Source: Patescibacteria group bacterium
Lineage (GTDB): Bacteria > Patescibacteriota > Minisyncoccia > Phycocordibacterales > Phycocordibacteraceae
Reading direction: 5' to 3'
Length of the DNA stretch: 64,000 nucleotides
NCBI GenBank assembly: GCA_024653825.1
Contig: JANLHF010000039.1
Location: 6,945-70,944, forward strand
How positions within the stretch are numbered: the first letter of the stretch is position 1; every line of letters begins with the position of its first letter. The translations under genes were made by a program, and so were the position numbers. Of the stretch, positions 2,931-63,409 are shown piece by piece. The notes below the pieces were generated by a model. It was not told the DNA's origin and searched no databases. It saw only the letters and a list, made by a program, of their open reading frames with translations.

Positions 2931-4904
2931 TTATGCCGGCACGAAGTCGAGTTCTTTTTCTGGAATACGCGCGGCGGTTAATTTAACCCGGATAGGGTCG
3001 CCGAGTTGGAAGGCTTTATGTGTGCGCTTGCCGACGAGGCGGTAGTGCTTCTCGTCATATTCAAAATAGTCGTCGCCGACGAGCCTGATATTTATCATCC
3101 CATCGGCATGCGTGGTTTGCTCTTCTACATAGAGTCCGCGCTCGGTCACGCCGGAAATGACGGCGTCAAATTCCTCGCCGATGCGTGGCGCGAGGAACTC
3201 CACCTGCTTCATTTTGATAGAGTCGCGCTCGGCGTCCGAAGCGCCGACTTCGCGCTCGGAGGCATGGATAGCGAGCTTGTCGAATGACTGCATCTCATTT
3301 GGCGTGATAGGGTCGCCACCGCTATGCGCCTTAATCAATCTGTGGATAACGAGGTCGGGGTAGCGGCGGATTGGGGAAGTGAAGTGTGTATAAAAGTCGA
3401 AGGCGAGACCGAAGTGGCCGATATTCTTTGTTGTATAGATAGCCTTGCTCATCGAGCGAAGCGTCGCCATCTTCACAAGATACTCCTCCGGCTTCCCTTT
3501 CACCGATTCCATAAGTTTGTTCAATTCGGCACCGGTCACTTGCCCACTGCCGCTCGTCTTCAGATGATAGCCCATAACGCGGAGAAGATTAGCAAGGTTT
3601 TCAATGCGGTCTGTGTCCGGCTCGTCGTGAACGCGATAGAGCGACTGGAAGTGCGAGCCGCCCTTGCTCGAGAGTTTAGAAAGGTGTTTCGCGACTGCTT
3701 CGTTCGCGAGGAGCATAAAGTCTTCGATCATCAGCATCGTATCCTTGCGCTCTTTGAGATGTATGGCGATCGGCTTGCCTTCAGCATCGAGTTCGATCTT
3801 GACCTCTGCTGTGTCGAATTCGACTGCGCCCTTGGCCTGGCGGCGCACGCGTATTTTCTTGGAGAGCGCGAGCAGAGTAGAAAGTTCTTCATACATCGTG
3901 CCGCTTCCCGCATCGAGCACCTCCTGCGCATTTTCATACGTAAAGCGCTTGTCGGAGTGGATAACCGTCTCGCCGAACCATTCGCTGACGATGTTCGCGT
4001 CGCTATCGAGCGTGAAAACTGCCGAAACGGCGAGACGATCTTCGTCCGGCTTAAGAGAACACAAATCATTCGACAAAACTTCGGGGAGCATCGGGATGGT
4101 GCGATCAACGAGGTACACACTTGTTGCGCGCGCCACCGCTTCTTTATCAAGCTCCGTGCCGGGCGAAACAAAGAACGAAACGTCAGCGATGTGTACACCG
4201 ACTTCAATGTTCCCATCGGGCAATTTCTGCACTGAGAGAGCATCGTCAAAGTCTTTTGCATCAAAGGGGTCGATAGTGCAGGTAGGGACTTTTCTAAAAT
4301 CTCTACGCTTCGGACTCCTCGCTTCCTCTGCGAGTATCGCCGCACCGTTTTTTTCGAGCTTTTCGGCATCCGCAACGACACCGGGAGGGAAGTCGCTTGA
4401 GAATCCTTGACCGAGCGCGAGTGCACGCATCTCGGTCTCGTGCATGCCGGCCTTGCCGATGTCTTCTTCAATCGTGCCGAGCGGGTAATCCTTGTCTGCG
4501 GCCCACTCGCCGAGCCGTACGAGGACCTTGTCGCCAAGCTGGGCGTCGCCCCGGTCAAGAATGACAATCGGCACGTACATCTTCTTGTAGTCGGGGGCAA
4601 GGAGGGTGAGACCGTTTTCTTCAACCAATGTTCCCACAAACGTTTCTCGAGCTCTAGAAACGATTTCAACCACCTTGCCCGAGGCGCGTGGCGGCATCCG
4701 GCCCATCGGGTCGCTATACATGCCTGCTGGGGCGACTTTAACAATGTCGCCCGCGAGCGCGTGGTTTGCCCATTCCTTAGGTATGAGCAGGTCTTCTTCC
4801 TGCTTGCCCTTCGTAGCCTTGGCGGAGGAGGGCCCTTCCACAGAGAAAAAGCCGATGCCTTTTCGGGTCATCGTTATAGGACCTTCGTAAATTGCCTGCG
4901 CCAT
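2931..4904 (-). CDS. rnr: Ribonuclease R (RNB family exoribonuclease with a C-terminal S1 domain)
   Basis: The RNB motif (CTIDPFDAKDFDDALS) is present, with a cold-shock-like N-terminus and an S1 domain at the C-terminus. The start is placed at an internal Met (4904, or 4871) because the longer ORF overlaps rpsP on the opposite strand. Confidence 0.85.
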   Translation of the reverse strand: MAQAIYEGPITMTRKGIGFFSVEGPSSAKATKGKQEEDLLIPKEWANHALAGDIVKVAPAGMYSDPMGRMPPRASGKVVEIVSRARETFVGTLVEENGLTLLAPDYKKMYVPIVILDRGDAQLGDKVLVRLGEWAADKDYPLGTIEEDIGKAGMHETEMRALALGQGFSSDFPPGVVADAEKLEKNGAAILAEEARSPKRRDFRKVPTCTIDPFDAKDFDDALSVQKLPDGNIEVGVHIADVSFFVSPGTELDKEAVARATSVYLVDRTIPMLPEVLSNDLCSLKPDEDRLAVSAVFTLDSDANIVSEWFGETVIHSDKRFTYENAQEVLDAGSGTMYEELSTLLALSKKIRVRRQAKGAVEFDTAEVKIELDAEGKPIAIHLKERKDTMLMIEDFMLLANEAVAKHLSKLSSKGGSHFQSLYRVHDEPDTDRIENLANLLRVMGYHLKTSGSGQVTGAELNKLMESVKGKPEEYLVKMATLRSMSKAIYTTKNIGHFGLAFDFYTHFTSPIRRYPDLVIHRLIKAHSGGDPITPNEMQSFDKLAIHASEREVGASDAERDSIKMKQVEFLAPRIGEEFDAVISGVTERGLYVEEQTTHADGMINIRLVGDDYFEYDEKHYRLVGKRTHKAFQLGDPIRVKLTAARIPEKELDFVPA

Positions 4905-6158: not shown

Positions 6159-6824
6159 ATGAAATTTCACTTAATCACACTTTTCCCCGAGGCCTGTGAC
6201 GCATATTTGAGCGCGTCCATCATCGGTCGCGCGCGGAAGGAAAAAAAGATTTCAATAAAATATCAGAACCCCCGCGACTTCGTCGCGGGGCCGGCGGGTA
6301 GCTATAAGAAGGTAGACGAGAAGCCGTATGGTGGTGGCCCCGGCATGGTAATGATGGCACTTCCAATCGTCAAAGCCGTCCAGAAATCACTTGGGGGTCG
6401 GACCCCCAAGTTGAAGAATCCTGTCATCGTCTGGTTTAAGCCGGGGGCGAAGCAGTTCACCAATAAAGATGCGGACGCGCTCGCGAAATATAGCGACGTG
6501 GTGCTCGTCTGTGGTCGCTACGAGGGCATAGATGAGCGCGCGAAGAAGATTTTAAAAACAATGGCGACAGTAAAAGAATTCGCCGTCGGCGAAGCGGTCT
6601 ACACCGGCGGGGAAGTCCCAGCGCTCGCGATAGTAGACGCCGTCACGCGTCGTCTGCCGGGCGTCCTCGGCAAGGACGCCTCCGTCGAGGAGCGCCGCAT
6701 CGCCTCCTCGGCCGTCTACACCCGTCCCGAAACGATTTCATACAAAGGCAAGAACTATAAAGTGCCAAAGGTCCTCAAAACCGGTCATCACACAAAGATT
6801 GACGCGTGGCGGAAGAAGAAATAA
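6159..6824 (+). CDS. trmD: tRNA (guanine37-N1)-methyltransferase TrmD
   Basis: The YGGGPGMVM motif and the SPOUT C-terminal region are present. The gene contains an in-frame 23-bp palindromic insertion (SLGGRTPKL). Confidence 0.85.
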   Translation: MKFHLITLFPEACDAYLSASIIGRARKEKKISIKYQNPRDFVAGPAGSYKKVDEKPYGGGPGMVMMALPIVKAVQKSLGGRTPKLKNPVIVWFKPGAKQFTNKDADALAKYSDVVLVCGRYEGIDERAKKILKTMATVKEFAVGEAVYTGGEVPALAIVDAVTRRLPGVLGKDASVEERRIASSAVYTRPETISYKGKNYKVPKVLKTGHHTKIDAWRKKK

Positions 6825-6870
6825 AGAAACCCTGCCGCGAGGCAGGGTTGATTGAGTGGAACTGAGCCCG

Positions 6871-7254
6871 TTAAGGGAGGGCGTATTGCTCGAGTATTTC
6901 GAGATAGCGAGTGCCGTCCGGGTCATGCGTCCGCTCGTCACGCGCCGATCGACGCACTTCGCTGATAGCGAAGATCTCGTCTGAGAAGACGCCGCCATAG
7001 TCTGTGTCCGTGCGCGGTTTCTCCATGAGCGGCAGATACACCCGGATGCCGTCGACCCACCGAGGTTCGGCGAGCGTGTCGACGAACGTGATGATGCGGC
7101 CGGCCTCGTCGGGATAGCAGACGAGCACCTTCATGCCCGCCTCCGCCTTACGTACAAAGCTGAGAACGTTCCTTCCGTTCTCCTTGGCATTCCGAACGAT
7201 CTTGCTCGGGGCCTCTGGCTTCGGGTGCAGTACTGCTTGGTTCTTGGACGACAT
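6871..7254 (-). CDS. Hypothetical protein (127 aa)
   Basis: ORF with coding-like composition and no recognisable motifs. Confidence 0.35.
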   Translation of the reverse strand: MSSKNQAVLHPKPEAPSKIVRNAKENGRNVLSFVRKAEAGMKVLVCYPDEAGRIITFVDTLAEPRWVDGIRVYLPLMEKPRTDTDYGGVFSDEIFAISEVRRSARDERTHDPDGTRYLEILEQYALP

Positions 7255-7424
7255 ACGTCCTCCTCAATATGGTTTCGCGGAAAGACCCGCCTGCCTTCGT
7301 TATACTCCTAATAATAAAAAAGTCAATAAACGTGTTATTTACATCTTTGACGATGTGTCGTACTCTCTGACCCAGAAAGATCTGTTCGGGGAAGCCCGAT
7401 AATCTGATACGAGAGGGGAAAGAA

Positions 7425-11370: not shown

Positions 11371-14300
11371 ATGGCATTCACACCCCGCAAACTTCCACCG
11401 CGCGACACCTGGAATGGACTCCGGCTCACGCTCGCTTCACCAGAGAAGATTCTCTCTTGGTCTTCGGGCGAAGTAACCAAGCCTGAGACCATCAACTATC
11501 GCACCCAGCGCTCCGAGAAGCACGGCCTCTTCGACGAGAAAATCTTCGGTCCGGAAAAGGACTATGAGTGTTACTGCGGTAAGTACAAGGGCATTCGCTA
11601 CAAGGGAATTGTCTGCGATAAATGTGGGGTTGAGATTACGCGCTCCATTGTTCGCCGCGAACGTATGGGCCACATCGAGCTCTGCACGCCGGTCGCGCAC
11701 ATCTGGTTCCTTCGCTCCGTGCCGTCGCGCATGGCGCTCCTTTTGGGCGCCTCGGCCGCGGATATTGAAAAGGTCGTCTACTTCGCCGGCTATATCGTCT
11801 CCAAGATTGCCGAAGAAGAGAAGAAGCGTTTGCTCACCGAACTCGAGAGTGAATATAAGTCCAAGTACAAGTCGCTTAGCTCCGATAAGGATCGCGATAC
11901 ACTCAAGGAAAAGATGACACTCACGAAGGCGGAGATTGAGGGTGTCGTCGTCGGCAAGGTGCTTGACGAGCTCGAATATCACCGCTTCTCGGTGAAGTAC
12001 GGCGGTCTCTTTGAGGCACGCATTGGCGCTGAGGCTATTTATGATATTTTCCGCGCGGTTAACCTGAAGGATCTCGAGAAGACGCTCGCGGCTCGTTATG
12101 AGCATGCCGGCGCCGCTGAACGCGAGAAGCTCGCGAAGCGTCTCTCGCTTATTGCCGGCCTTATCGCTGCTGGTGTTCGTCCTGAATGGCTCTTCCTCAC
12201 GCGCATCCCAGTCATCCCGCCGGCGCTTCGCCCGATGGTCGCGCTTGAAGGTGGTCGCCATGCGACCAGCGACGTGAACGACCTCTATCGCCGCGTCATC
12301 AACCGTAACAATCGTTTGAAGAAGCTCATCGACATTCACGCGCCGGAAGTTATTCTGCGTAACGAAAAGCGTATTCTCCAAGAGGCTGTTGATGCACTTC
12401 TCGACAACTCTATCCGTAAGAGCGGCGCCTCAGCTGGCGCACTCACGATGGCACAGCGTCGTCCGCTGAAGAGCTTGGCCGACTATCTGAAGGGTAAGCA
12501 GGGATACTTCCGTCAGAACCTACTCGGTAAGCGCGTCGATTACTCCGGTCGCTCGGTTATTGTCGTCGGTCCGGACTTGGAACTCGACGAATGCGGTCTG
12601 CCAAAGCACATGGCCTTGGAACTCTTCCGTCCGTTCGTTATCGCCGGACTTCTCGAGCGCGAACTCGCGTTCAACATTCGCGGCGCAGGCCGTCTCGTTG
12701 AAGACGGTGTTGCCGAAGTGTGGGAAATCCTTGAGGAGGTCATCAAGGGTAAGTATGTGTTGCTTAACCGCGCACCGACGCTCCACCGCCAGGGCATCCA
12801 AGCATTCCAGCCGCGACTCATCGAGGGCGATGCTATCCAGCTCCACCCGCTCGTTTGTAGCGCATTCAATGCCGACTTCGACGGCGACCAGATGGCCGTT
12901 CACGTCCCTCTCTCCGAAGAGGCGCAGTGGGAGGCGGCGAACATTATGAGTGCCAACAAGAATATCCTCAAGCCGGGATCCGGCGACGTCACCGTACTTA
13001 TCGGTAAGCCGATGGACATCATCCTTGGCGTCTACTGGCTCACGAAGGCAGTGGAGGGGGCGAAGGGTGAAGGCGACCACTTCGCATCACCGAACGCGGC
13101 TATTCTCGCGTCCGAGTATGAAGCGATTGATGCTCGCGCCAAGATCAAGGTCTTGCCGGTTGAAGGTAAGGAGAAGTATGCGGCATTTGACGGACATCCG
13201 TTTGAGACGACTGTCGGACGTCTTCTCTTTAACACGGTGCTTCCCGCCGACTACCCGTTTATCAACGAGACAATCACGAAGAAGGTGCTCGCGCGCATTG
13301 TGAACCACTGCATCGCGAAGTACGGTCTCGACGCCGTGCCGGGCATTGTGAACAAGGTGAAGCGTTTCGGTTTTGATTATGCGACGCGCTCCGGTATCAG
13401 TTGGGCGATTGACGATGCGTCGGTGCCGAAGGAGAAGGAGCATATCATTGATGCCGCCGCGGCCAAGATTGCCTCTCTAGAAAAGGATTATCAGAACGGC
13501 CTTCTCGCTGAGGAAGAGAAGCGTCGTATGGCCATTGAGATCTGGCAGGGCACAAAGCAGGCGGTGGAAGAACAGGTCGCCAAAGAACTCAACCCAATGG
13601 GTTCAGTTTCCGACATGGTGAAGTCGGGCGCTCGCGGTACGATGGGCAACCTGACACAGATGTCAGGTATGAAGGGCCTTATTCAGGACACCTCCGGTAG
13701 AACCATCGAGGTGCCGATCATTTCCTCGATGATTGAGGGACTCAATCCGATTGAATACTTCATGTCGACGCACGGCGCGCGTAAGGGTCTCACCGACACC
13801 GCGCTCGGTACGGCAAAGGCCGGATACCTCACACGCCGCCTCTTTGACGTGGCACAGGACTCTATCGTGACCGAAAAGGATTGCGGCACGAAACGCGGCG
13901 TGAAGATTAATCGCGTGTCGGCCTCCGGAATCCAGACGAATTACGCTGAAGCACTTCGCGGACGCGTACTCGCCGAAGACGTGCAGGATAAAGACGGCGC
14001 TGTTCTCTTTAAGAAAGGACAGTATCTTTCGATTGCCGACGCTGAAACGTTGGCGGCAGCTACTTCAGTCGCGACGGTCGTGTCGCGTTCACCGATGTCC
14101 TGTGAGACGCGCTACGGCGTCTGTCAGACCTGCTACGGGATGGACCTCACGACACAGGAAATGGTTGACCTCGGAGAAGCAGTGGGCACAGTCGCGGCGC
14201 AGGCCATCGGCGAACCGGGCACTCAGCTCACGATGCGTACCTTCCACGCCGGTGGCGTGGCCTCGGTCGGTGGTGACATCACCTCGGGTCTCCCGCGTGT

Positions 14301-15093
14301 TGAAGAAGTATTCGAAAAGCGTTCGCCAAAGAATCCAGCAGTTATTTCCAAGACTGACGGCATCGTTTCTGAAATTAAAGAAGAGGGAAGGGAGAAAGTC
14401 CTCGTGGTTGTCCCGTCAGCAGGACAGGGCAAGAAGGATGGCTCTGCGTACGAATATCTCGCGCCATATCCACGCGTTCCGCTTGTGAAGGAGGGCGACA
14501 CGGTCGTGAAGGGTCAGATCCTCACCGACGGTTCCGCCGATCTCGACGATCTCTTCGAGTATTCCGGCCGTGCGACGGTACAGGAATATATCATCACTGA
14601 GGCATCCAAGATCTATGAGCTCCAGGGCGCGCCCGTTTCGCGTAAGCACTTGGAGGTTGTGGTGAAGCAGATGTTCTCGCGCGTGAAGATTACCGACGCG
14701 GGCGACACCGATTACTCGGTCGGCGACGTTGTGGAGGATTGGGAAATCGTGAAGTCGATGAAGGAGATGGAGGATGCGGGGAAGATCGTGCCGAAGTCGC
14801 GCGATATCGTTCTCGGCATCAAGGAGAGCGCTCTCTCTCGCCGTTCCTTCCTCTCGGCTGCTTCCTTCGAACAGACGACGAAGATTCTCATCAACGCCGC
14901 ACTCCGCGGCTCGGTGGACCGCCTACGCGGACTCAAAGAGAACGTCATCCTCGGCCGTCTTATCCCGTCAGGCACCGGATTCAAGGGGAGTAAGAAGTAC
15001 GAGCACATCGCGAAGTTGCAGGCCGAGCGCCCGGCGCCGACCTATGAGTCGCGCACGACCTCGTTCGCCCCCCGCACTCCGCGGGCGTTCTAG
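11371..15093 (+). CDS. rpoC: DNA-directed RNA polymerase subunit beta'
   Basis: The [16 protein letters not shown] catalytic motif and N-terminal zinc-binding cysteines are present. The gene lies 22 bp downstream of rpoB. Confidence 0.95.
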
Positions 15094-20190: not shown

Positions 20191-21051
20191 ATGAAGCAGA
20201 AAAGGGCAGTGAGGAACCACGGGAAGAAAAAAAGAGTACCGATTAAGCACTGGAGCCATTCCAGCCTAATGTCCTTCCTAAGGAATCCGCTTGCTTGGTA
20301 CAAGCGCTATGTGGAGGAGATATACGATACGCCGACGACGCCGGCGGCGGTTATCGGCAGCGCGGGGCACCTCGCGCTGGAGCACTATTATTCGGGTGCG
20401 CCCAAGGATATCGCGATACAAAAAGGGTTGGAATACGTGCGCAGTATTGGCGACTTTGAAATTAATTTTGGTCAAGCGAAAAGCAAAGCGGCGCGGCGCG
20501 CGAAGCGCGCCGCGATGGAGGCCGACTATCTACGCGCCATCGGGTATTACCTCGCGCGTCCGCCGAAGCACAAAGTGCTCGGCGTGGAGGTACGGGGTGT
20601 GGTTGAGGTTGAAGGGCTGCCAATCCCCATCAAGGCGATTTCAGACTTGGTGGTGGAATCAAAAGTGGAGAAAGGAGCGGTGGACATTGTGGACCATAAA
20701 TTCGTCGCTTCTTTCAGCAAGGGAGGCGCGGCGAAATCGCTCTTCGTGATTCAGGCACTTTTTAATTACTACACCGTACGGGAGATGTTCGGGAAGCCGG
20801 TCCGGCGCTTTATCGTGTATGAGTGTAAGAAAACAAAGAACGCCGACGGATCCCCGCAGATGCGACGATACGAAATCGATTTCCAGAAGCACGCTCAAGA
20901 TTTCAAAGTCTTCCATCGGCTCATCAACGATGCGACCGAGGAGATTTCGCGCCGGCGCGTGTATCTACCAAACCCCTCCGATATGTTTGAAGGCGACAGT
21001 TCTTTTGATATTTATCGGTTGGAATTAGTTTCCGAGGGCCTGGTCGATTAA
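20191..21051 (+). CDS. PD-(D/E)XK nuclease superfamily protein (RecB/Cas4-like core without an Fe-S cluster)
   Basis: The N-terminal WSHSSLMSFLRNPLAWYKRY and the D...DIVDHK catalytic motifs are present. The start is an internal ATG at 20191, preceded by a TATACT box. Confidence 0.6.
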   Translation: MKQKRAVRNHGKKKRVPIKHWSHSSLMSFLRNPLAWYKRYVEEIYDTPTTPAAVIGSAGHLALEHYYSGAPKDIAIQKGLEYVRSIGDFEINFGQAKSKAARRAKRAAMEADYLRAIGYYLARPPKHKVLGVEVRGVVEVEGLPIPIKAISDLVVESKVEKGAVDIVDHKFVASFSKGGAAKSLFVIQALFNYYTVREMFGKPVRRFIVYECKKTKNADGSPQMRRYEIDFQKHAQDFKVFHRLINDATEEISRRRVYLPNPSDMFEGDSSFDIYRLELVSEGLVD

Positions 21052-24877: not shown

Positions 24878-25671
24878 TACGTATAGGATACAACAATCAC
24901 ACGGGGCTTGCTGTACTGGTCAGTGCGTATCTCGGCCGTGAGGCCCTGTTCCACAAAAAGCGCGGCCGCAGCGGCCGCGTGTCCGCGGTCGCACTCGATC
25001 CACGCGACTCCGCCTTTGGCGAGATGCCTTGGGAGCGCGAGCGCGATGCGGCGGATATAATCGAGTCCGTCATCTCCGGCCATGAGTGCGAGAGAGGGTT
25101 CGTAGTCGGCGACGCTCGGCGGAAGCACATGGCTAGTGGGGACGTAGGGCGGGTTCGTAGCGATGACATCAAATTTCATATCCTCAAATGGTTCAAGGAG
25201 GTCGCCGATGCAAATGTGTGCGTGGCTCTCGTCCAGATTATTTTCTTGAATGTTTTTTAAAATAGTCGCCTTGTGTGCGGGATCGATCTCGCCGAAATAG
25301 ACTTGTGCATTGGGAATCTTCGCGAGCGCCGCACACCCGATGGCGCCGCTCCCTGCACATAAATCAAGGAATTTCAGTTGCTCGCCGGCAGGCCCAAAAG
25401 TGGGCGCGCTCCGGGCCGCTAGGCCAAGTCTTACCCCCACTTTTGGGCCTGCCGGTTCGCTTTTCAACAATTGCTCGGTCCACCACTCAGTCTCGGGGCG
25501 GGGGATGAGTGGCTTGGAATCTAGATAGATTTTCAGACCCAGAAAGGGTTGCCAGCCGATGACGTAGGCCAGCGGCTCGCCTCCGGCGAGCCGCTTCCTA
25601 TCTTCTTCAAAATGGGGGGTTCGTACCCCATCATATTTTTCTTCCAGAAGATGTTGTTCGTCTTTAGTCAT
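24877..25671 (-). CDS. prmC: Release factor glutamine methyltransferase PrmC/HemK
   Basis: It has the NPPY motif and an LDLCAGSGAIG SAM-binding site. It carries an in-frame 72-bp hairpin-element insertion. Confidence 0.85.
   Translation of the reverse strand: MTKDEQHLLEEKYDGVRTPHFEEDRKRLAGGEPLAYVIGWQPFLGLKIYLDSKPLIPRPETEWWTEQLLKSEPAGPKVGVRLGLAARSAPTFGPAGEQLKFLDLCAGSGAIGCAALAKIPNAQVYFGEIDPAHKATILKNIQENNLDESHAHICIGDLLEPFEDMKFDVIATNPPYVPTSHVLPPSVADYEPSLALMAGDDGLDYIRRIALALPRHLAKGGVAWIECDRGHAAAAAALFVEQGLTAEIRTDQYSKPRVIVVSYT
25384..25455. repeat. E2 hairpin element, copy 1, in-frame inside prmC: a 21-bp perfect inverted repeat around a 30-nt conserved core
   Basis: The sequence is gccggcaggcccaaaagtggg - CGCGCTCCGGGCCGCTAGGCCAAGTCTTAC - cccacttttgggcctgccgg. 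The core is shared with the copy at 63436..63466. Confidence 0.7.
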
Positions 25672-31372: not shown

Positions 31373-33076
31373 TTATGCCGAAGGTGCAGGGCGGATGAGG
31401 TCGTGCTTGATATCGGCAAACGTGCCGCCAACCTTCTTGCCGGGGTTGAAAATCCCTTGCGGGTCAAACATCTTTTTCGTTTTTTCAAAAAGTTCTATCA
31501 TTTCTGCACCGAAGAGCATCGGGAGATAGGGCGTGCGCACGATACCGTCATTGTGCTCGCCGGTCGTGGTGCCACCGGCCTCGATAACCATTTTATACAC
31601 CTTGGGCGCGAGGTCGAGAATGACTTGGCGATTCTCCTCCTTGGTGAGGTCCATCAGCGGAATGATGTGAATGTTACCGTCGCCAATGTGGCCCGCAACG
31701 GTATAAATCATATTGTCTTTGTATTCATCGAGAAGAGCATTCAGCTTCGGCAAGAATGTCGGATAACTTGAAGGCGGGACGACGAAGTCGTCGATGAAGG
31801 GCGAGGAGACGAGTCCGTGGAGATTCTTGCGCAAGAGGTTGAAGCTCTCGCGGCGCACTATCCAATACTTCTCTGACTCTTTTTCATTTTTTTCAATCTT
31901 CGTTTGTAAATGCAAGTCGGCCAAGGCCTCCTTGGCCGCCAGAGCTTTAGCGTCGGCGGCTTCGATAGTGTCTTCGGCAAATTCGGCCATTAATATCATC
32001 TTGGGCACACCGCCGGTCGCGACCATCGCCGCCTCGGGGATGAAGTCGATGCCGAGCCGCACCGCCTTTATAAGCCCCATTTGCGAGAGCATTTGGGGCA
32101 TAAACTTCACCGCGAGGGTGAAGGTGTGGTCGTCGTAGCTCTCAAACGATTCGGGCTTCTGGAGCAGAACGCGCCGGACAATCTCGGGAAGGATGTTGAG
32201 GTCGTAGAGGAAGCACACAAGCATCGCACGGTGCTCCTTGGGCTTCACCAACCCGAGCTTCGCCTGCGTCCAGAGCGCGAGCGTGCCTTGCGAGCCGCAG
32301 ACGAGCTTCGCAAGGTTGAAGCTGCCGGCGGTCGAATCTTTCACGCTCCAGAGCGCGTAGCCGGCAGAGTTTTTAGATACCTTCGGTCGGTGGCCTTCAA
32401 TGAGCCCGGCGTTCTCGGTGAGAAGCGCGTCCATCTCGCGATAAATCCCGCCTTCAAGCGTGTTCAACTTTTTCTTTTCTTCTAGTTCTGCGTATGACAG
32501 TGCCTTAAAGGTAGTTTGTGAGCCATCAGAGAGAACGACGTCGACTTCTTCGACATACTTTTCTGTCTTGCCGTACTTCAGTGTGCGCTCGCCGCCGGAA
32601 TTGTTTGCCACGATGCCGCCCATCGCGGCTATCTCGCGCGAGGCGGGGTAGGAGGGGAGTATTAAACCTTTTTCCAGTGTCGCCTTTTCAAAATCCCTAT
32701 AAAACACCCCTGGCTCCGTCACCGCGTACCCGTCAATTTCACTTGGGGGTCGGACCCCCAAGTCAGAAGTGACTTCGCCCATATGATTCATATGCTCGGT
32801 AAAAGAGACCACGACGCCGGTCGTGAGAGGGCCGCCCGACATGTCGGTACCGGCGGAGCGCGCCGCGAGCGAAATTTCAGTACCTCGACTTCGCTCGGCA
32901 CCTACGACGCGAACGAGTTCGGAAACATCGTTCGCGTCTACGGGATACACCACCAGCTCCGGCATCCGCGTAAACAGGGACGTGTCGCGACTAAGCTTCG
33001 CAAGCGTCGCGCCGTCATCACTCACCTCGCCCTTCATCACCCCCTTCAGCGCATTTTTCAAATCTTCTGTGGTCAT
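31373..33076 (-). CDS. FAD-linked oxidase (GlcD/D-lactate dehydrogenase family)
   Basis: It has the FAD_binding_4 N-domain (RSAGTDMSGGPLT) and a C-terminal GGTTTGEHNDGIVR region. The start is an internal ATG at 33076. An in-frame E1 palindrome encodes TSDLGVRPPSE. Confidence 0.8.
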   Translation of the reverse strand: MTTEDLKNALKGVMKGEVSDDGATLAKLSRDTSLFTRMPELVVYPVDANDVSELVRVVGAERSRGTEISLAARSAGTDMSGGPLTTGVVVSFTEHMNHMGEVTSDLGVRPPSEIDGYAVTEPGVFYRDFEKATLEKGLILPSYPASREIAAMGGIVANNSGGERTLKYGKTEKYVEEVDVVLSDGSQTTFKALSYAELEEKKKLNTLEGGIYREMDALLTENAGLIEGHRPKVSKNSAGYALWSVKDSTAGSFNLAKLVCGSQGTLALWTQAKLGLVKPKEHRAMLVCFLYDLNILPEIVRRVLLQKPESFESYDDHTFTLAVKFMPQMLSQMGLIKAVRLGIDFIPEAAMVATGGVPKMILMAEFAEDTIEAADAKALAAKEALADLHLQTKIEKNEKESEKYWIVRRESFNLLRKNLHGLVSSPFIDDFVVPPSSYPTFLPKLNALLDEYKDNMIYTVAGHIGDGNIHIIPLMDLTKEENRQVILDLAPKVYKMVIEAGGTTTGEHNDGIVRTPYLPMLFGAEMIELFEKTKKMFDPQGIFNPGKKVGGTFADIKHDLIRPAPSA

Positions 33077-33352
33077 ATGAGAACAGTATATACTAGGGGG
33101 ATGGAATGGTTCGAGTCCCGGTTCTGAGTCAATCAAGGCAACTAAAAGGCGAATTCTCGAAAAAGTACCATCAGCCAGTTTTAAGGTTGTAGACCAAGGA
33201 TTCACTGGTTTCATGGCGAGTCAGGCTCGTGACGATTTCTTTAAGTAATGAGTCTTTTTTGAGCAGTAATAAGATTCCAACACCGCCTCGCACAGCCAGC
33301 AGGCACCTTTCTTCCAACCCTCCCGAGTCCCGCTGCTCAAACGGAATTGAAA

Positions 33353-34827: not shown

Positions 34828-36528
34828 ATGACTCAAGGCGAGGCGCTTACGATTTTAAAAACGGGCGCGAATGTGTATCTCACCGGCGAGCCGGGGAGCG
34901 GGAAGACGTACACCATAAATGAATTCGTCGCGTGGCTGCGCGCCTCGGGCATCGAGCCGTCAGTAACCGCGGCGACCGGTATCGCGGCGACGCACGTCGC
35001 GGGGATGACGCTCCACTCCTGGAGCGGTATCGGTATTAACGAATCGCTCTCCCGCGCCGACGTCGACCGCATCGCGACCAAGGAGCACATCGCGAAACGT
35101 ATTACGAAAGCGAGGGTGCTCATTATTGAGGAAATTTCAATGCTTTCTTCTGCGACATTCGAGATGGCGGACGCTGTTTGCCGCGAGGTGCGTAGAGTCG
35201 ACAAGCCCTTCGGCGGGCTCACAGTCATCTTGGTGGGCGACTTTTTCCAGTTACCACCCGTCTCGCGTAATAGAGAAGTCGCTTTCGCCTATACGTCGCC
35301 GGCCTGGCGCGAATTAAATCTCATCACCTGCTATCTCACCGAGCAGTATCGCCAAGACGACAGTGAATTCCTCAGCGTGCTCTCCGCTATTCGCTCGGGA
35401 GAAGTGGAAGAGATGCACTACGAGCAACTTAGGACACGGCGTGTCCTAAATAAGGAAGAGGAGCCGGCGGATGCGCCAAAACTGTTTTCGCATAATGCCG
35501 ATGTCGATCGCATCAATGCGGCAGAACTTGCAAAACTAAAAGGAACATCGAAGAAATTCAGCATGAGCTCAAAAGGAAAGGATAGTTTCGTGGAGGGACT
35601 GAAGCGCGGCTGTCTCTCGCCTGAGGTGTTGGAGCTGAAGGAGGGCGCGGCGGTGATGTTCACCAAGAACTCGCCCCAAGGGAGATTTGTGAACGGTACG
35701 CTCGGCGTGGTGAGCGGATGGGGTGCTGATGGGGCGCCGATTGTGAAGACAAAAGAGGGGCTACGTATCACGACCGAGCCGATGGAGTGGCAACTTGAAG
35801 AGCAGGGGAAGGTGAAGGCGAGCGTCTCGCAGATACCGCTTCGGCTCGCCTACGCGATGACCGTGCATAAGAGCCAGGGGATGAGTATGGACGCGGCGAT
35901 TATGGATCTCTCGAGAGCCTTTGAATACGGACAGGGTTATGTCGCGCTCTCGCGGGTGCGCCGCCTGAGCGGGGTGTATCTCACGGGGCTCAATCAACGC
36001 GCGCTTGAAGTGCATCCGGAGATTCTTGAAAAAGATAAAGACTTCCGTGCCGCCTCAGAGGCGGCACGCGATGCGTTCGCCCCTCGACCAGACTCGGGGC
36101 AGGCGGGAATGTCTGAAACCGAGAAAATAGCGATGCAGAAGAAATTCGTCAAAGCGATGGGAGGAGCCTGGATGGAAAACACAGGGAGTAGCAAGCAAGG
36201 GGTAGGGAGTAGGAAAAAAGATTCGGCAGGGCTGCCGGGGAGACTGGCAGAGACGTTACAGACCGTGCGCGACGCGAAGAGTTTAAAAGAAGTCGTGAAG
36301 TCGCGCGGGCTCGTCGCCTCGACAATCGTGAAGCATCTGGAGGAGCTCGCAGAGATAGGGAAGCTCGCTCGTTCTGACTTCGCGCATCTCGTCCCCATAG
36401 ACATTGTTGATGAAATCCATGAAGCGCTCAAAGATGAAGACACGGATCGTCTTTCACCGGTATTCCATTCTCTCCACGGCCGGCACTCCTTCGAGACTAT
36501 CCGTCTCGTCCGCCTGATGCGGGATTGA
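34828..36528 (+). CDS. Pif1/RecD-family (AAA_30) DNA helicase
   Basis: It has a Walker A (GEPGSGKT), a TVHKSQGMSMD motif and a C-terminal extension. Confidence 0.8.
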   Translation: MTQGEALTILKTGANVYLTGEPGSGKTYTINEFVAWLRASGIEPSVTAATGIAATHVAGMTLHSWSGIGINESLSRADVDRIATKEHIAKRITKARVLIIEEISMLSSATFEMADAVCREVRRVDKPFGGLTVILVGDFFQLPPVSRNREVAFAYTSPAWRELNLITCYLTEQYRQDDSEFLSVLSAIRSGEVEEMHYEQLRTRRVLNKEEEPADAPKLFSHNADVDRINAAELAKLKGTSKKFSMSSKGKDSFVEGLKRGCLSPEVLELKEGAAVMFTKNSPQGRFVNGTLGVVSGWGADGAPIVKTKEGLRITTEPMEWQLEEQGKVKASVSQIPLRLAYAMTVHKSQGMSMDAAIMDLSRAFEYGQGYVALSRVRRLSGVYLTGLNQRALEVHPEILEKDKDFRAASEAARDAFAPRPDSGQAGMSETEKIAMQKKFVKAMGGAWMENTGSSKQGVGSRKKDSAGLPGRLAETLQTVRDAKSLKEVVKSRGLVASTIVKHLEELAEIGKLARSDFAHLVPIDIVDEIHEALKDEDTDRLSPVFHSLHGRHSFETIRLVRLMRD

Positions 36529-46009: not shown

Positions 46010-46116
46010 TGAGACCACAATACCACGAATTATTGAAAAAATCAACGTATTGCTGTATTGAGATTAAAAAAGAAACGGCACCCTTGGAGGGTGCCGATGC
46101 CGTACTGAACCGAGGC

Positions 46117-60536: not shown

Positions 60537-60608
60537 CTCCGGGAGCAGGACTCGAACCTGCAACCAACGCCTTAACAGGGCGCTGCTCTACCATTGAGCT
60601 ATCCCGGA
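60537..60608 (-). tRNA. tRNA-Asn (anticodon GUU); no encoded CCA
   Basis: A cloverleaf was folded manually. The acceptor stem is TCCGGGA/TCCCGGA, the D-arm is GCTCAATGGTAGAGC, the anticodon loop is CUGUUAA and the T-arm is GCAGGTTCGAGTCCTGC. Confidence 0.85.
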
Positions 60609-61378: not shown

Positions 61379-61606
61379 ATGTTTATAAAAGTATTCGTTA
61401 CGCCGAGTGCGAAGCGCGAAAGAATAGACGAAAAGGGCGATGCGTTGCTCGTGGCAGTAAAAGAGCCAGCAATGGGGAATCGCGCGAATACGCGCGTGCG
61501 CGAGATTGTCGCCGCACGGGAAGGTGTGCCGGTGGGGAAGGTGCGCATACTGACAGGACACCGTTCTCGGGTTAAAATGGTAAGTGTTACTAGCCCCGAC
61601 GCTTAG
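61379..61606 (+). CDS. DUF167/YggU-family protein
   Basis: The DUF167 pattern is VKVTPSAKRERI...LLVAVKEPAMGNRAN... Confidence 0.65.
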   Translation: MFIKVFVTPSAKRERIDEKGDALLVAVKEPAMGNRANTRVREIVAAREGVPVGKVRILTGHRSRVKMVSVTSPDA

Positions 61607-61645
61607 TCGGGGCCCCGACTAAGCGTCGGGGCTGATTTTTCCACT
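61596..61645 (+). terminator. 40-bp perfect palindrome (two inverted 20-nt units) followed by a T-tract; strong terminator or cruciform
   Basis: The sequence is gccccgacgcttagtcgggg|ccccgactaagcgtcggggc, then TGATTTTTCC. It overlaps the yggU stop codon. Confidence 0.65.
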
Positions 61646-62008
61646 ATGCATATCACCATCAAGACGACAAAGCTTAAATTAGATCCAGAGACTGAAGCGA
61701 TGGTAGAAGAGAAGCTCGCGGCGCCCCTGCGTCTGCTTGGAGAAGACGGCGATAACGCTCTACTAGAAATAGATGTGGAAGAAGCGCCGCCGGAGGGCCG
61801 CTCGTCAGAGCCGTACCATCTGGTCGCTCGGCTTATCGTAAATGGCGAGGTGTACCACGCCGAAGCAGTGAAGCCGACGCCGGAGAGCGCAGCCGACAGA
61901 GTACGCAGTGAACTAGAGGCAGAAATACGACGCTCGCGCGGGCGCGCACGCAAACTCTGGAAGCGCGGTAGCTCGGCGGTTAAGAATATGTTGCGCTTCG
62001 GCCGTTAG
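61646..62008 (+). CDS. hpf: Ribosome hibernation promoting factor / RaiA family (short form with a basic tail)
   Basis: The N-terminus MHITIKTTKLKLDPETEAMVEEKL is typical of the S30AE family. Confidence 0.8.
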   Translation: MHITIKTTKLKLDPETEAMVEEKLAAPLRLLGEDGDNALLEIDVEEAPPEGRSSEPYHLVARLIVNGEVYHAEAVKPTPESAADRVRSELEAEIRRSRGRARKLWKRGSSAVKNMLRFGR

Positions 62009-62856
62009 CCTTTGTATTCCGTTTCGCGTTTGCCTTCGGGAATGACGCGCAGGACACGGAAAACGCCCGCGGCGTTTTCCGCGGAGATGATTTTCATACG
62101 CTTTCCGTTTTCAAAGAAATACGTGCCGATGCTGTCAGCGTAGGCACGATACTTGTTCCAGTTTTCTTGTGCGGGCGCAGTGAGGTCGAGAAGACCGTCT
62201 TCTTTTGCGAGTTTACGCGCGCGCGAAGCGCGCGCGGCGTCCTGGGCGACTGGCGTAATCTCATCGCGTTCAAATACAGGGAGTGTAGTGGTGAGAAGCG
62301 TTGCGCCCATCTCGATGAGTCGCGGGCGCAGTTCACGCGCAGTCTCGTCAGGCACTATCGTCGTTTTTTCTTGTGCGAGGATGTCGCCCGCATCAAGCTC
62401 GCGCACCATTTTCTGTATCGTCACACCGGTCTCAGCTTCGCCCATGAGAAGCGCGGTCTCGAGCGGCGTTGCGCCACGATACTTCGGTAGGAGCGAGTAG
62501 TGCACATTTAAAACGCCTTTCGGGAATGTGGCGATAAGCGCCTCGGGAAATATTTTTCCGTAGGCGACGACGACGGCGTAGTCAGTGTGCTGCGACGCGA
62601 TTGCCGCAATCGCGACGTCATCCAATTTTTCTGGCGTGAGGACTGGAATAGTGTGCGCGAGCGCGAGCTCCTTGGTGAGCGAAGGGGTGAGCGCGAGGCC
62701 ACGTCCTTTTGGCGCGTCCGGAGACGTCACGACAAGTGTCGGTATAAAACCGTGTTCGATTAGAAGCGCGAGCGTGTCGCTTGCGACCTTCGGCGTGCCA
62801 AAATAGACGAAGCGAAGCGAGCCCCTTTGTTGGGCGAACTTATGCGACTGCGGCAT
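62005..62856 (-). CDS. fmt: Methionyl-tRNA formyltransferase
   Basis: The HYSLLPKYRGATP motif is present. The gene overlaps the def stop, giving a def-fmt operon. Confidence 0.85.
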   Translation of the reverse strand: MPQSHKFAQQRGSLRFVYFGTPKVASDTLALLIEHGFIPTLVVTSPDAPKGRGLALTPSLTKELALAHTIPVLTPEKLDDVAIAAIASQHTDYAVVVAYGKIFPEALIATFPKGVLNVHYSLLPKYRGATPLETALLMGEAETGVTIQKMVRELDAGDILAQEKTTIVPDETARELRPRLIEMGATLLTTTLPVFERDEITPVAQDAARASRARKLAKEDGLLDLTAPAQENWNKYRAYADSIGTYFFENGKRMKIISAENAAGVFRVLRVIPEGKRETEYKG

Positions 62857-63409
62857 GGTGGATGTGGATAAGATTCTCCGCGTGGTCGACGAAGAGGACG
62901 CCGTTGAGATGATCGATTTCGTGCTCGAATATCTGCGCTATGAGCCCGCCGCCCCCGCGCTCAAACTTTGTGCCGTCGACGCGACGCGCGCAGACGGTCA
63001 CGCGCTCGTGCCTATTGGTTGTGCCGTACACGCCGCGGACGGAAAGACACCCCTCATCCGCCTTCGCGCGTTTGCGGGAGGTCTTCACAATCTCCGGATT
63101 GATATACACTTCAACCTCAGCACTTGGGGGTCCGACCCCCAAGTCTGACTTGGGGGTCGGACCCCCAAGTGGAGCTTCGGGAAGAGGTGGTAGGGTGCGA
63201 TCTTTCCGCACGATGAAGATGCGATAGGGAATGCCGATCTGTGGTGCGGCGAGCGCGACACCCTCGAGTTCAGGATCGAGCGCTTCGGTCATATCGTCAA
63301 TAATCTTTGCGAGCTTTGGCGTATCGAAAAACTCCTCGGGCACCGGCTCGGCCGTCCCGCGGAGCACCTCGGCACCGTCTTGCACGATTTCTTTCATGTC
63401 GTTTAGCAT
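62840..63409 (-). CDS. def: Peptide deformylase
   Basis: It has the three deformylase motifs GVALAAPQIG, EGCLS and HEIDHLNG. A tandem in-frame E1 palindrome pair encodes LGGPTPKSDLGVGPPS in a surface loop. Confidence 0.85.
   Translation of the reverse strand: MLNDMKEIVQDGAEVLRGTAEPVPEEFFDTPKLAKIIDDMTEALDPELEGVALAAPQIGIPYRIFIVRKDRTLPPLPEAPLGGPTPKSDLGVGPPSAEVEVYINPEIVKTSRKRAKADEGCLSVRGVYGTTNRHERVTVCARRVDGTKFERGGGGLIAQIFEHEIDHLNGVLFVDHAENLIHIHHAAVA

What the first reader, a model, noticed from the sequence alone, without database searches (positions are those of the whole stretch)
6389..6411. E1: a 23-bp palindromic selfish element inserted in-frame in housekeeping genes (trmD copy)
The near-perfect palindrome ACTTGGGGGTC-S-GACCCCCAAGT occurs in four coding locations: trmD at 6389, the FAD oxidase gene at 32741 and a tandem pair in def at 63122 and 63148. 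The three-gene distribution points to a spreading element rather than chance. Each copy keeps the reading frame, and none of its three frames contains a stop. The copies encode short Gly/Pro-rich loops (SLGGRTPKL; LGVRPPS). This parallels the Rickettsia palindromic elements (RPEs), which insert in-frame into protein genes, but here the unit is far shorter.
Basis: seen in the sequence. Interest (0 to 1): 0.75.

Follow-up and report, generated by a model that had tools for sequence, protein, structure and literature searches.

The report
Tiny hairpin transposon inside essential genes
A 23-base DNA palindrome that sits in-frame inside trmD, def and an FAD oxidase gene is a real, spreading repeat of ultra-small (Patescibacteria) bacteria, and in related genomes it directly flanks an IS200-like "RAYT" transposase gene, so it is a new family of REP-type hairpin elements, one that often survives inside protein-coding genes.

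Summary
ACTTGGGGGTC-S-GACCCCCAAGT occurs exactly four times in the window, at 6389, 32741, 63122 and 63148, against 0 in shuffles. All four copies lie in-frame, in trmD, an FAD oxidase gene and def.

The same 23-mer occurs at 64 non-redundant sites in Patescibacteria MAGs and metagenome contigs of 32-61% GC. These include at least 13 housekeeping gene families (dnaE, murC, uvrC, tsaD, gltX, ksgA and others) and the tips of terminator-like intergenic hairpins. Comparisons with orthologues that lack the element show true insertions: +48 nt for a pair, +42 nt in a CCA enzyme gene, and about +21 nt in the FAD oxidase.

The key result is that the element directly flanks an IS200-like Y1 (HUH) transposase gene. 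Its best NCBIfam match is the REP-associated tyrosine transposase (RAYT), though below the curated cut-off. This holds in 6 contigs found through the element and in 2 of 2 relatives of that transposase fetched through the protein. Tandem pairs are inverted doublets, as in REPINs.

E1 is therefore a REP/REPIN-type hairpin, probably mobilised in trans by a divergent RAYT. Intragenic REPs and Rickettsia RPEs are already known, so this is a new variant of a known kind. It has no GTAG/CGTC tag, is conserved across very different genomes, and changes in concert at orthologous sites.

The parts
6389..6411 (.). E1 copy (centre G) inside trmD (+ strand gene, 6159-6824). It encodes (S)LGGRTPK(L), at the end of a helix and in the loop before strand VIVWF.
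   Evidence: The same insert is at the same site in H41-bin079 (L007) and in L039. All 23 bases are identical there, while only 51-58% of flanking third-codon positions are identical.
32741..32763 (.). E1 copy inside the FAD-linked oxidase ORF (- strand, 31373-33214). It encodes (D)LGVRPPS(E).
   Evidence: The closest homologue (66% identity, P0361) and most others lack these residues.
63121..63171 (.). Inverted doublet of E1 (63122-63144 centre C, 63148-63170 centre G, spacer CTG), forming a 51-nt perfect palindrome inside def (- strand, 62840-63397). It encodes PLGGPTPKSDLGVGPPS in a disordered loop.
   Evidence: The same 23-CTG-23 doublet occurs in dnaE of another contig (L021).
6159..6824 (+). 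Host gene trmD (tRNA m1G37 methyltransferase).
62840..63397 (-). Host gene def (peptide deformylase, 185 aa as annotated in P0121).
31373..33214 (-). Host gene: FAD-binding oxidase (GlcD/D-lactate dehydrogenase-like). The true start is probably downstream of the first ATG of the ORF.

Best explanation
E1 is a REP/REPIN-type miniature hairpin element of Patescibacteria.

**What it is.** The unit is a 23-25 bp perfect palindrome, (C)ACTTGGGGGTC-N-GACCCCCAAGT(G). As single-stranded DNA it folds into a 10-11 bp hairpin.

**How it probably moves.** It is the cognate repeat of a divergent clade of IS200-like Y1 (HUH) tyrosine transposases, RAYT-like and annotated RayT by JGI. That enzyme, encoded elsewhere in the genome, most likely recognises the hairpin on single-stranded DNA, for example at replication forks. 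It would then cut and rejoin it at new sites without making target-site duplications.

**Why it is seen in genes.** These ~1 Mb genomes have very little intergenic space, so many insertions land in genes. Only those survive that add a multiple of 3 nt to a tolerant loop. E1 has no stop codon in any frame, and its three frames encode Gly/Pro/Ser/Thr-rich peptides (LGGxTPK, LGVxPPS, TWGSDPQV). Copies therefore persist inside trmD, def, dnaE and other genes.

**Pairs and intergenic copies.** Pairs are inverted doublets, REPIN-like. Intergenic copies cap longer, lineage-specific stems that look like terminators.

**Shown:** repeat family, true insertions, in-frame persistence, hairpin potential, physical linkage to the transposase gene.

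**Inferred:** that this transposase mobilises E1, the single-strand mechanism, and selection as the cause of the in-frame pattern.
For: **Repeat family**
- Four exact copies in the window against 0 in shuffles.
- 64 non-redundant sites in contigs of 32-61% GC. The outer A...T, which the search pattern did not specify, is kept in 75 of 76 hits.

**True insertions**
- dnaE of L021 against L031 differs reciprocally at two sites, +48 nt each.
- dnaE of L010 is also empty at the first site.
- CCA enzyme +14 aa.
- FAD oxidase about +7 aa against its closest homologue.

**Host genes**
- Ten host genes from the related loci, in ten different families, were confirmed by Pfam, and all three reading frames are in use.

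**Link to the transposase**
- A Y1_Tnp gene (Pfam 38.5 bits, cut-off 23) occurs in 7 of the E1-selected loci and directly abuts E1 in 6 of them:
  - L037: copies at 6522 and 6675, gene 6712-7383, copy at 7353.
  - L017: copy at 13768, gene 13799-14521, copy at 14543.
  - L018: copy at 2989, gene, copy at 3884.
  - Also L009, L028 and L051.
- Reciprocal test: two homologues fetched by protein alone are also flanked by E1-family hairpins (ACTTGG...CCAAGT). These are L068 and L072.
- A second Y1 gene on the same contig as L068 is flanked by a different palindrome (L069). This fits one repeat family per transposase.
- The HUH motif and the catalytic Tyr are invariant in 36 homologues.
- The only or best NCBIfam hit is the REP-associated tyrosine transposase. 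JGI names the family RayT.

**Hairpin matters**
- Variant copies keep palindromy through compensated changes.
- DNA folding gives z-scores of -4 to -11.

**Other features**
- No target-site duplication was found.
- Doublets always have complementary centres, so they are inverted, as in REPINs.
Against: - No RAYT gene lies in the 64-kb window, and the rest of this genome could not be retrieved. The trans-acting enzyme is therefore not shown for this organism.
- The transposases score below NCBIfam's RAYT cut-off (18-63 bits against 80). They have no significant PDB sequence match.
- E1 lacks the GTAG/CGTC tag of described REP superfamilies.
- Copy number is low: 4 in 64 kb, and 7 in the MAG H41-bin079.
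- Mobility has not been shown experimentally for any REP/RAYT system in this phylum.
- Perfect conservation at old orthologous sites is not what simple insert-and-decay predicts.
Confidence: 0.8

Rival explanations
1. E1 is a selected or driven protein-binding or DNA-uptake signal, like DUS/USS or parS/matS. It would be maintained by selection or by biased uptake and recombination, not spread by transposition.
For: - The 23-mer is conserved across very different genomes (32-61% GC).
- It is identical at orthologous trmD sites despite about 45% divergence at flanking third-codon positions.
- Intergenic copies form terminator-like hairpins, as inverted USS/DUS pairs do.
- Orthologous def copies change in concert with the lineage's other copies.
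Against: - Filled-versus-empty comparisons show insertions of 42-48 nt, not point-mutational creation.
- Isolated half-sites are essentially absent: none in the window, one stray in L006.
- Density is far below that of uptake sequences.
- The tight flanking of Y1 transposase genes is unexplained by this model.
Confidence: 0.08
2. The palindromes arise in place by replication template switching or fold-back synthesis at hairpins. No dedicated enzyme would be involved, and E1 would simply be the most successful product.
For: - Nested, doubled palindromes are always inverted duplications.
- The window holds 26 perfect palindromes with arms of 9 nt or more, against about 1.5 in shuffles. Some are apparently built from local coding sequence, such as 6270-6290, which encodes PRDFVAG.
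- Compensated variants keep palindromy.
Against: - De novo genesis cannot place one identical 23-mer at 64 unrelated sites in different genomes.
- It does not explain linkage to Y1 transposase genes.
- It may still explain doublet formation and the symmetrising of mutations.
Confidence: 0.07
3. E1 is a minimal MITE of a conventional DDE transposon: two abutted terminal inverted repeats, inserted with a target-site duplication.
For: The element is two 11-nt inverted repeats around a single base. Position -1/+1 prefers C/G.
Against: - No direct repeats flank the copies.
- The flanks are often complementary rather than duplicated.
- No DDE transposase is linked to E1, whereas a Y1 transposase is.
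Confidence: 0.03
4. Assembly or sequencing artefact: a palindromic chimera or adaptor.
For: One MAG contig (L004) shows a collapsed pair that creates a frameshift in dnaE.
Against: - E1 is present in independent assemblies from many studies.
- It is in-frame at orthologous positions in diverged genes.
- It is linked to a specific gene family.
Confidence: 0.01

Closest known systems
REP / REPIN elements with REP-associated tyrosine transposases (RAYTs) of Proteobacteria (Nunvar 2010 and Ton-Hoang 2012, from my own knowledge; Bertels & Rainey, PMC3116915, listed but not read; bioRxiv 10.1101/2021.07.10.451892, read)
   Same: - A short (20-40 bp) palindromic repeat dispersed in the genome.
- Inverted doublets.
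- An IS200-like Y1/HUH transposase gene flanked by its own repeat.
- No target duplication.
- Intergenic copies placed downstream of genes in terminator-like hairpins.
   Different: - The phylum is Patescibacteria; a full-text search found no paper linking RAYT or REPIN to it.
- The palindrome is perfect, with a single free central base.
- There is no GTAG or CGTC tag; the conserved stem foot is ACTTGG/CCAAGT.
- The doublet spacer is 2-3 nt (CTG or CA in E1 pairs), not tens of nt.
- Copy number is low.
- A large share of copies is intragenic and translated.
- The same repeat is conserved across transposases only 31-60% identical and across genomes of 32-61% GC.
- The transposase scores below NCBIfam's RAYT cut-off.
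Intragenic GTAG/CGTC REPs and Rickettsia palindromic elements RPE-4/RPE-6 (Di Nocera et al. 2013, PMC3733652) and RPE-1 (Ogata et al. 2000, cited there)
   Same: - Palindromic repeats inserted in-frame in functional genes.
- Often present as dimers encoding about 20-30 aa.
- Frequent in replication and repair genes, including dnaE and uvr genes.
   Different: - E1 belongs to a different sequence family and host phylum.
- RPE-1 is 100-150 bp.
- E1's sites are shared by diverged lineages and carry lineage-specific compensated variants.
- E1-derived segments lie in-frame inside the transposase gene itself.
Coding palindromes in Nematomorpha mitochondrial genes (PMC6649704; abstract seen) and GC clusters of yeast mitochondria (own knowledge)
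   Same: Perfect inverted repeats embedded in protein-coding sequence and translated.
   Different: Those are organellar, much longer or of other sequence, and have no associated transposase. This comparison is a lead from an abstract and from memory, not something tested here.

Membership tests
REP/REPIN-RAYT system | Short (about 20-40 bp) palindromic sequence repeated at dispersed sites | tested here: met
   Four exact copies in the window. 64 non-redundant sites elsewhere. Seven copies in MAG H41-bin079.
REP/REPIN-RAYT system | A Y1 (HUH) transposase gene flanked by copies of the same repeat | tested here: met
   Met in L037, L017, L018, L009, L028 and L051, and reciprocally in L068 and L072. 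Not present in the window itself.
REP/REPIN-RAYT system | The transposase is a RAYT rather than an IS200 TnpA | tested here: inconclusive
   - Pfam Y1_Tnp is above its cut-off (38.5 against 23).
- The best or only NCBIfam hit is NF047646, REP-associated tyrosine transposase, but below its cut-off (18-63 against 80). For L018 it scores 62.7 against 25.4 for IS200.
- HUH and Tyr are invariant.
- JGI names the family RayT.
REP/REPIN-RAYT system | Conserved GTAG (or CGTC) tetranucleotide at the foot of the hairpin | tested here: not met
   E1 reads (C)ACTTGG...CCAAGT(G), with no GTAG or CGTC. A different palindrome in the same trmD loop of L062 does carry GTAG...CTAC.
REP/REPIN-RAYT system | Inverted doublets (REPINs) | tested here: met
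   def pair in the window, with centres C then G. L021. L031 has a doublet whose centres are G then C, though its second copy has one mismatch. L070 has a pair, but both centres are C and the second copy is cut short; L071 has a pair with both centres A. The spacer is only 2-3 nt.
REP/REPIN-RAYT system | Extragenic location | tested here: not met
   All four window copies and roughly a third of all sites are inside genes. Intragenic REPs are a known minority elsewhere (PMC3733652).
REP/REPIN-RAYT system | The transposase binds and cleaves the repeat; the repeat is mobile | not testable with these tools
   There is only comparative evidence of insertion.
Rickettsia palindromic elements (RPE) | Palindromic repeat inserted in-frame in functional protein genes | tested here: met
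Rickettsia palindromic elements (RPE) | Member of the Rickettsia RPE sequence families (RPE-1 is about 100-150 bp) | not tested
   E1 is 23 bp and was found only in Patescibacteria-type contigs. No sequence comparison with RPE consensus sequences was run.
MITE of a DDE transposon | Target-site duplication flanking terminal inverted repeats | tested here: not met
   No direct repeats. The flanks are complementary or unrelated.
DNA uptake sequence (DUS/USS) | Very frequent single, non-palindromic copies created by substitution | tested here: not met
   Half-sites do not occur alone in the window. Copies are insertions.

The most novel reading that the evidence does not exclude
E1 copies may not be passive insert-and-decay relics. 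They may be actively rewritten in place.

- At the orthologous def site, three lineages carry three different, still palindromic E1 variants.
- The variant is the same in both copies of the doublet. In L070 it matches another copy elsewhere in that locus.
- At the trmD site the 23-mer is frozen while its flanks diverge. In other relatives the same loop holds unrelated palindromes of the same length.

This would fit hairpin-cassette exchange or gene conversion driven by the RAYT-like enzyme. Such a process would homogenise repeats even inside essential genes. The enzyme's own gene carries two in-frame E1-derived segments, which might serve autoregulation.
Probability: 0.3. Interest if true: 0.7.

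Novelty: new variant of a known kind. Interest (0 to 1): 0.55.

Why it matters
REP/RAYT systems have been studied almost only in Proteobacteria and are regarded as essentially extragenic.

Here a very small hairpin repeat is linked to a divergent RAYT clade that has at least about 3,000 members in public Patescibacteria data. It persists inside essential genes of some of the smallest, most gene-dense bacterial genomes. Its sequence is conserved across a wide range of hosts.

- **A natural system for study.** It could show how hairpin elements choose and keep their sites. It could also show how proteins tolerate repeated 8- to 16-residue loop insertions, and whether repeats are homogenised in place.
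- **A practical warning.** The repeat can collapse in MAG assemblies and create false frameshifts, and it adds spurious "conserved motifs" (LGGxTPK, LGVxPPS) to protein alignments.

Tried and rejected
- **Target-site duplication or insertion motif.** None found. The only signal is a symmetric preference for C at -1 and G at +1.
- **DNA-uptake or parS-like site.** Considered because of the cross-genome conservation. Rejected as the main explanation because copies are insertions, half-sites never occur alone, and the transposase linkage is strong.
- **Stop-free frames as a special adaptation.** A random 23-mer has roughly a 1-in-3 chance of this (my own estimate), so it is not evidence by itself.
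- **Rfam.** No family covers E1; the only hit in the window is a tRNA.
- **Viral contigs.** No copy found.
- **PDB sequence searches with the transposase.** Nothing significant with a single sequence or a profile; the best relevant hit is ISDra2 TnpA at E = 0.16.
- **The window's own contig.** Look-up failed, so neither a genome-wide copy count nor the presence of a RAYT in this organism could be established.
- **RAYT in the window.** tblastn found none.
- **The shortest TrmD loop form (L063) as an "empty site".** It is only 9 nt shorter and its left side resembles the E1 arm. The ancestral state of that loop is therefore unclear, and I did not use it to size the insertion.

Full report
**1. 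The observation**

The 23-mer ACTTGGGGGTC-S-GACCCCCAAGT is present exactly at 6389, 32741, 63122 and 63148. No further copy exists with up to three mismatches, and none appears in 100 dinucleotide-preserving shuffles.

All four copies lie in long ORFs and are read through:
- trmD (+, 6159-6824): SLGGRTPKL.
- An FAD-linked oxidase ORF (-, 31373-33214): DLGVRPPSE.
- def (-, 62840-63397): PLGGPTPKS then DLGVGPPSA.

TrmD and Def are confirmed by strong matches to solved structures. The two def copies have complementary centres (C, then G) and a CTG spacer. Together they form a 51-nt perfect palindrome.

The element has no stop codon in any frame. The unit is 23 nt, so the reading frame is kept by the total inserted length, not by the unit. 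The two def copies are read in different frames.

**2. It is a family, and it is inserted**

A scan of one genome per species found the exact 23-mer in three Patescibacteria MAGs. One of them, H41-bin079, is a close relative and has the same trmD insert.

A metagenome scan used a pattern that left the centre and the outermost bases free. It returned 54 more loci. Together there are 64 non-redundant sites, on contigs of 32-61% GC. The unspecified outer A...T is kept in 75 of 76 hits. The centre base is G (27), C (27), T (6) or A (4). No copy occurs in viral contigs.

Ten spanning ORFs from the related loci were confirmed by Pfam as ordinary genes: DnaE, MurC, UvrC, TsaD, GltX, KsgA, CCA-adding enzyme, prepilin peptidase, a glycosyltransferase and an LTD/PKD protein. 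With the three window genes, at least 13 gene families carry the element. All three reading frames are in use.

Filled and empty sites can be compared directly:
- Two dnaE orthologues (L021, L031) each carry an E1 pair where the other has none, at two different sites. The difference is +48 nt in each case.
- A third dnaE (L010) is also empty at the first site.
- A CCA-enzyme gene carries +14 aa relative to the H41-bin079 orthologue.
- In the window's FAD oxidase, the closest homologue (66% identity) has a loop 7 residues shorter, and most others about 10 shorter.

So these are true, lineage-specific insertions.

**3. Anatomy**

No target-site duplication or asymmetric target motif was found. 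The only flank signal is C at -1 and G at +1, which gives a 25-mer consensus.

In 22 of 64 sites the flanks extend the palindrome by 3-13 further complementary bases. By my estimate, chance would give about 1.6% of sites. These lower stems differ between organisms but repeat within one. Examples are CGAAC|E1|GTTCG six times in the 60%-GC RCMY contigs and CCTCC|E1|GGAGG twice in L010. They are often bracketed by A- and T-runs, like bidirectional terminators.

Degenerate copies keep palindromy through paired changes. The outer ACTTGG/CCAAGT is the most conserved part.

As single-stranded DNA, single copies fold at about -11 kcal/mol and the def pair at -33 kcal/mol. The z-scores are -4 to -11.

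**4. The decisive link**

I looked at what lies between closely spaced copies. In L037 this was a 223-aa ORF with YHIYNRG, NHFH (HUH) and SAYINLN motifs. Pfam assigns it to Y1_Tnp, "Transposase IS200 like" (38.5 bits, cut-off 23).

tblastn found this gene in 7 of the loci that had been selected only for containing E1. In 6 of them E1 directly abuts the gene:
- L037: copies at 6522 and 6675, gene 6712-7383, copy at 7353.
- L017: copy at 13768, gene 13799-14521, copy at 14543.
- L018: copy at 2989, gene, copy at 3884.
- L009: copy 3 nt after the stop codon.
- L028: copy just 3' of the gene.
- L051: a gene fragment bounded and interrupted by E1.

As a reciprocal test I fetched two homologues by protein alone. 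Both are flanked on both sides by E1-family hairpins:
- L068: ACTTGGCGGCGAGACACCCAAGT, five copies.
- L072: ACTTGGGTGTCCAACACCCAAGT and relatives.

A second Y1 gene on the same contig as L068 is flanked by a different palindrome, AAGTTAGGACATC-S-GATGTCCTAACTT (L069). That is what one repeat family per transposase predicts.

The protein family has at least 2,991 members at E <= 1e-10. JGI names them "REP element-mobilizing transposase RayT". NCBI calls them "transposase" in Zambryski-, Giovannoni- and Nomurabacteria, Minisyncoccia and others. The HUH histidines and the tyrosine are invariant in 36 aligned members.

The only or best NCBIfam hit is NF047646, REP-associated tyrosine transposase, but below its cut-off (18-63 bits against 80). 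PDB sequence searches gave nothing significant. The clade is RAYT-like but divergent.

**5. Mechanism**

The best-supported reading is that E1 is a REP/REPIN-type hairpin mobilised in trans by this transposase. By analogy with IS200/IS605 and E. coli RAYT (my own knowledge), the enzyme would act on the folded single strand and leave no target duplication.

In-frame persistence is most simply a survivorship effect in genomes with almost no intergenic DNA. Only insertions that add a multiple of three and fall in tolerant loops remain. E1's stop-free, Gly/Pro/Ser/Thr-rich translations make that easier.

The structure models have only moderate confidence (mean pLDDT 64-67):
- The Def insert is in an unstructured segment with pLDDT below 50, between two strands.
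- The TrmD insert is at the end of a helix and in the coil before strand VIVWF.

The linkage, the insertions and the hairpin constraint are shown. Catalysis and mobilisation by the RAYT-like protein are inferred. No such gene is in the window, and I could not retrieve the rest of this genome.

**6. Hot spots and concerted change**

Among 120 close TrmD homologues the same loop is hypervariable. DNA from six of them shows other perfect palindromes at the same place:
- A 23-mer with the same centre but different, fully compensated arms (L062, TGTAGGACGTC-G-GACGTCCTACA).
- Doubled hairpins of 40-51 nt (L064-L067), always as inverted duplications.

The Def loop behaves likewise.

At the orthologous def site, L070 carries ACTTGGCGGTC-C-GACCGCCAAGT in both copies of the pair. 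That variant recurs elsewhere in the locus, at 8547. L071 carries CTTGGAGGCC-A-GGCCTCCAAG in both copies.

At trmD, window, L007 and L039 share all 23 bases, including 8 of 8 third-codon positions. Flanking third positions are only 51-58% identical.

So these insertions are old, yet they track a lineage "master" sequence. Possible causes are conversion between copies, RAYT-mediated replacement of the hairpin, template switching within the nested palindrome, or repeated insertion into the same tolerant loop. I cannot separate them. This is the least explained and most interesting aspect.

**7. Comparison with what is known**

REP/RAYT and REPIN biology is established in Proteobacteria. [quoted passage not shown]

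Di Nocera et al. (PMC3733652) already described intragenic GTAG/CGTC REPs. These are often dimers encoding 20-30 aa, frequent in replication and repair genes including dnaE. They equated the short Rickettsia RPE-4 and RPE-6 with such REPs.

A full-text search found no paper linking RAYT or REPIN to Patescibacteria.

E1 differs from described REPs in several ways:
- No GTAG/CGTC tag.
- A perfect palindrome with one free base.
- A 2-3 nt doublet spacer.
- Low copy number.
- A high intragenic share.
- Conservation across transposases only 31-60% identical to the L037 protein, and across very different base compositions.
- Most of the transposase genes contain two in-frame E1-like segments, LGG(E/R/P)TPK.

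I therefore class it as a new variant of a known kind.

**8. Verdict**

The added result is the identification of E1 as the hairpin of a RAYT-like transposase clade. The open question is how copies are updated in place. Interest is moderate (0.55).

Noticed in passing
L062:1510-1535, L064:3940-4000, L065, L066, L067, L069:10238-10264 (trmD loop of relatives): The same TrmD loop holds unrelated perfect palindromes in close relatives. There is a GTAG-tagged 23-mer, and there are doubled hairpins of 40-51 nt. The family ATGTGGGACGT-NNN-ACGTCCCACAT also sits in an L25 gene (twice) and in a transketolase gene of the same contig.
   Followed up: partly
window 1-64000, e.g. 6270-6290, 20492-20514, 24961-24979, 25571-25595, 31918-31938, 36046-36068, 46076-46096: The window holds 26 perfect palindromes with arms of 9 nt or more, against about 1.5 in shuffles. 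About ten lie inside ORFs. At 6270-6290, inside trmD, the palindrome encodes PRDFVAG, so VAG is the reverse complement of the conserved PRD codons. This looks like local fold-back duplication.
   Followed up: partly
window 35429-35449: TTAGGACACG-G-CGTGTCCTAA lies inside a 569-aa ORF. It resembles the palindrome AAGTTAGGACATC-S-GATGTCCTAACTT that flanks a second Y1 transposase gene in L069. It may be a second REP family in this genome.
   Followed up: no
window 61592-61633: A 42-nt perfect palindrome made of a hairpin (CCCCGAC-GCTTA-GTCGGGG) and its inverted copy, followed by a T-run. It lies just upstream of ORF 61646-62008. It is another inverted doublet, of a different sequence.
   Followed up: no
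alignment A4 (P0241-P0355); L037:7149, L017:13996 and 14296, L068:2392 and 2671, L072:10178 and 10457: Most genes of the RAYT-like family contain E1-derived segments in-frame at two conserved positions (..SF..LGGETPK.. and ..NLN..H.LGGETPKL..). A minority of members lack both.
   Followed up: partly
L004:2688-2770 versus L031:7931-8040 (dnaE of Hainich H41 organisms): The MAG contig has one E1 copy where the metagenome contig has a pair. This puts dnaE out of frame and is probably an assembly collapse. In L031 the ORF also ends at a TAG nine codons after the pair, where L021 reads on.
   Followed up: no
L011:6537-7288; L023:4628-5321: Pairs of E1 copies bracket small accessory cassettes: a GIY-YIG nuclease gene (L011 6611-6877) and a HepT/MntA toxin-antitoxin pair (L023 4661-5273).
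   Followed up: partly
Def homologues P0125, P0126, P0143, P0164, P0175, P0201 and others: Many Def orthologues carry another palindrome-like peptide, QGSTLDxNSQGRTL, in the same loop. This suggests a further hairpin family. The DNA was not examined.
   Followed up: no
L018, L024, L025, L033, L045, L049 (RCMY contigs, about 60% GC): Here E1 has an A or T centre and constant CGAAC/GTTCG flanks with T-runs. L018 has a more canonical RAYT (62.7 bits to NF047646). The organism was not identified and may lie outside the window's clade.
   Followed up: no
L038:3113 versus L052:723: Two 98%-identical CCA-enzyme genes differ at the E1 centre base (Pro against Arg). This is either a point change or a flip of the hairpin.
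   Followed up: no
window 60537-60608: A tRNA gene on the minus strand. It is the only Rfam match in the window.
   Followed up: no
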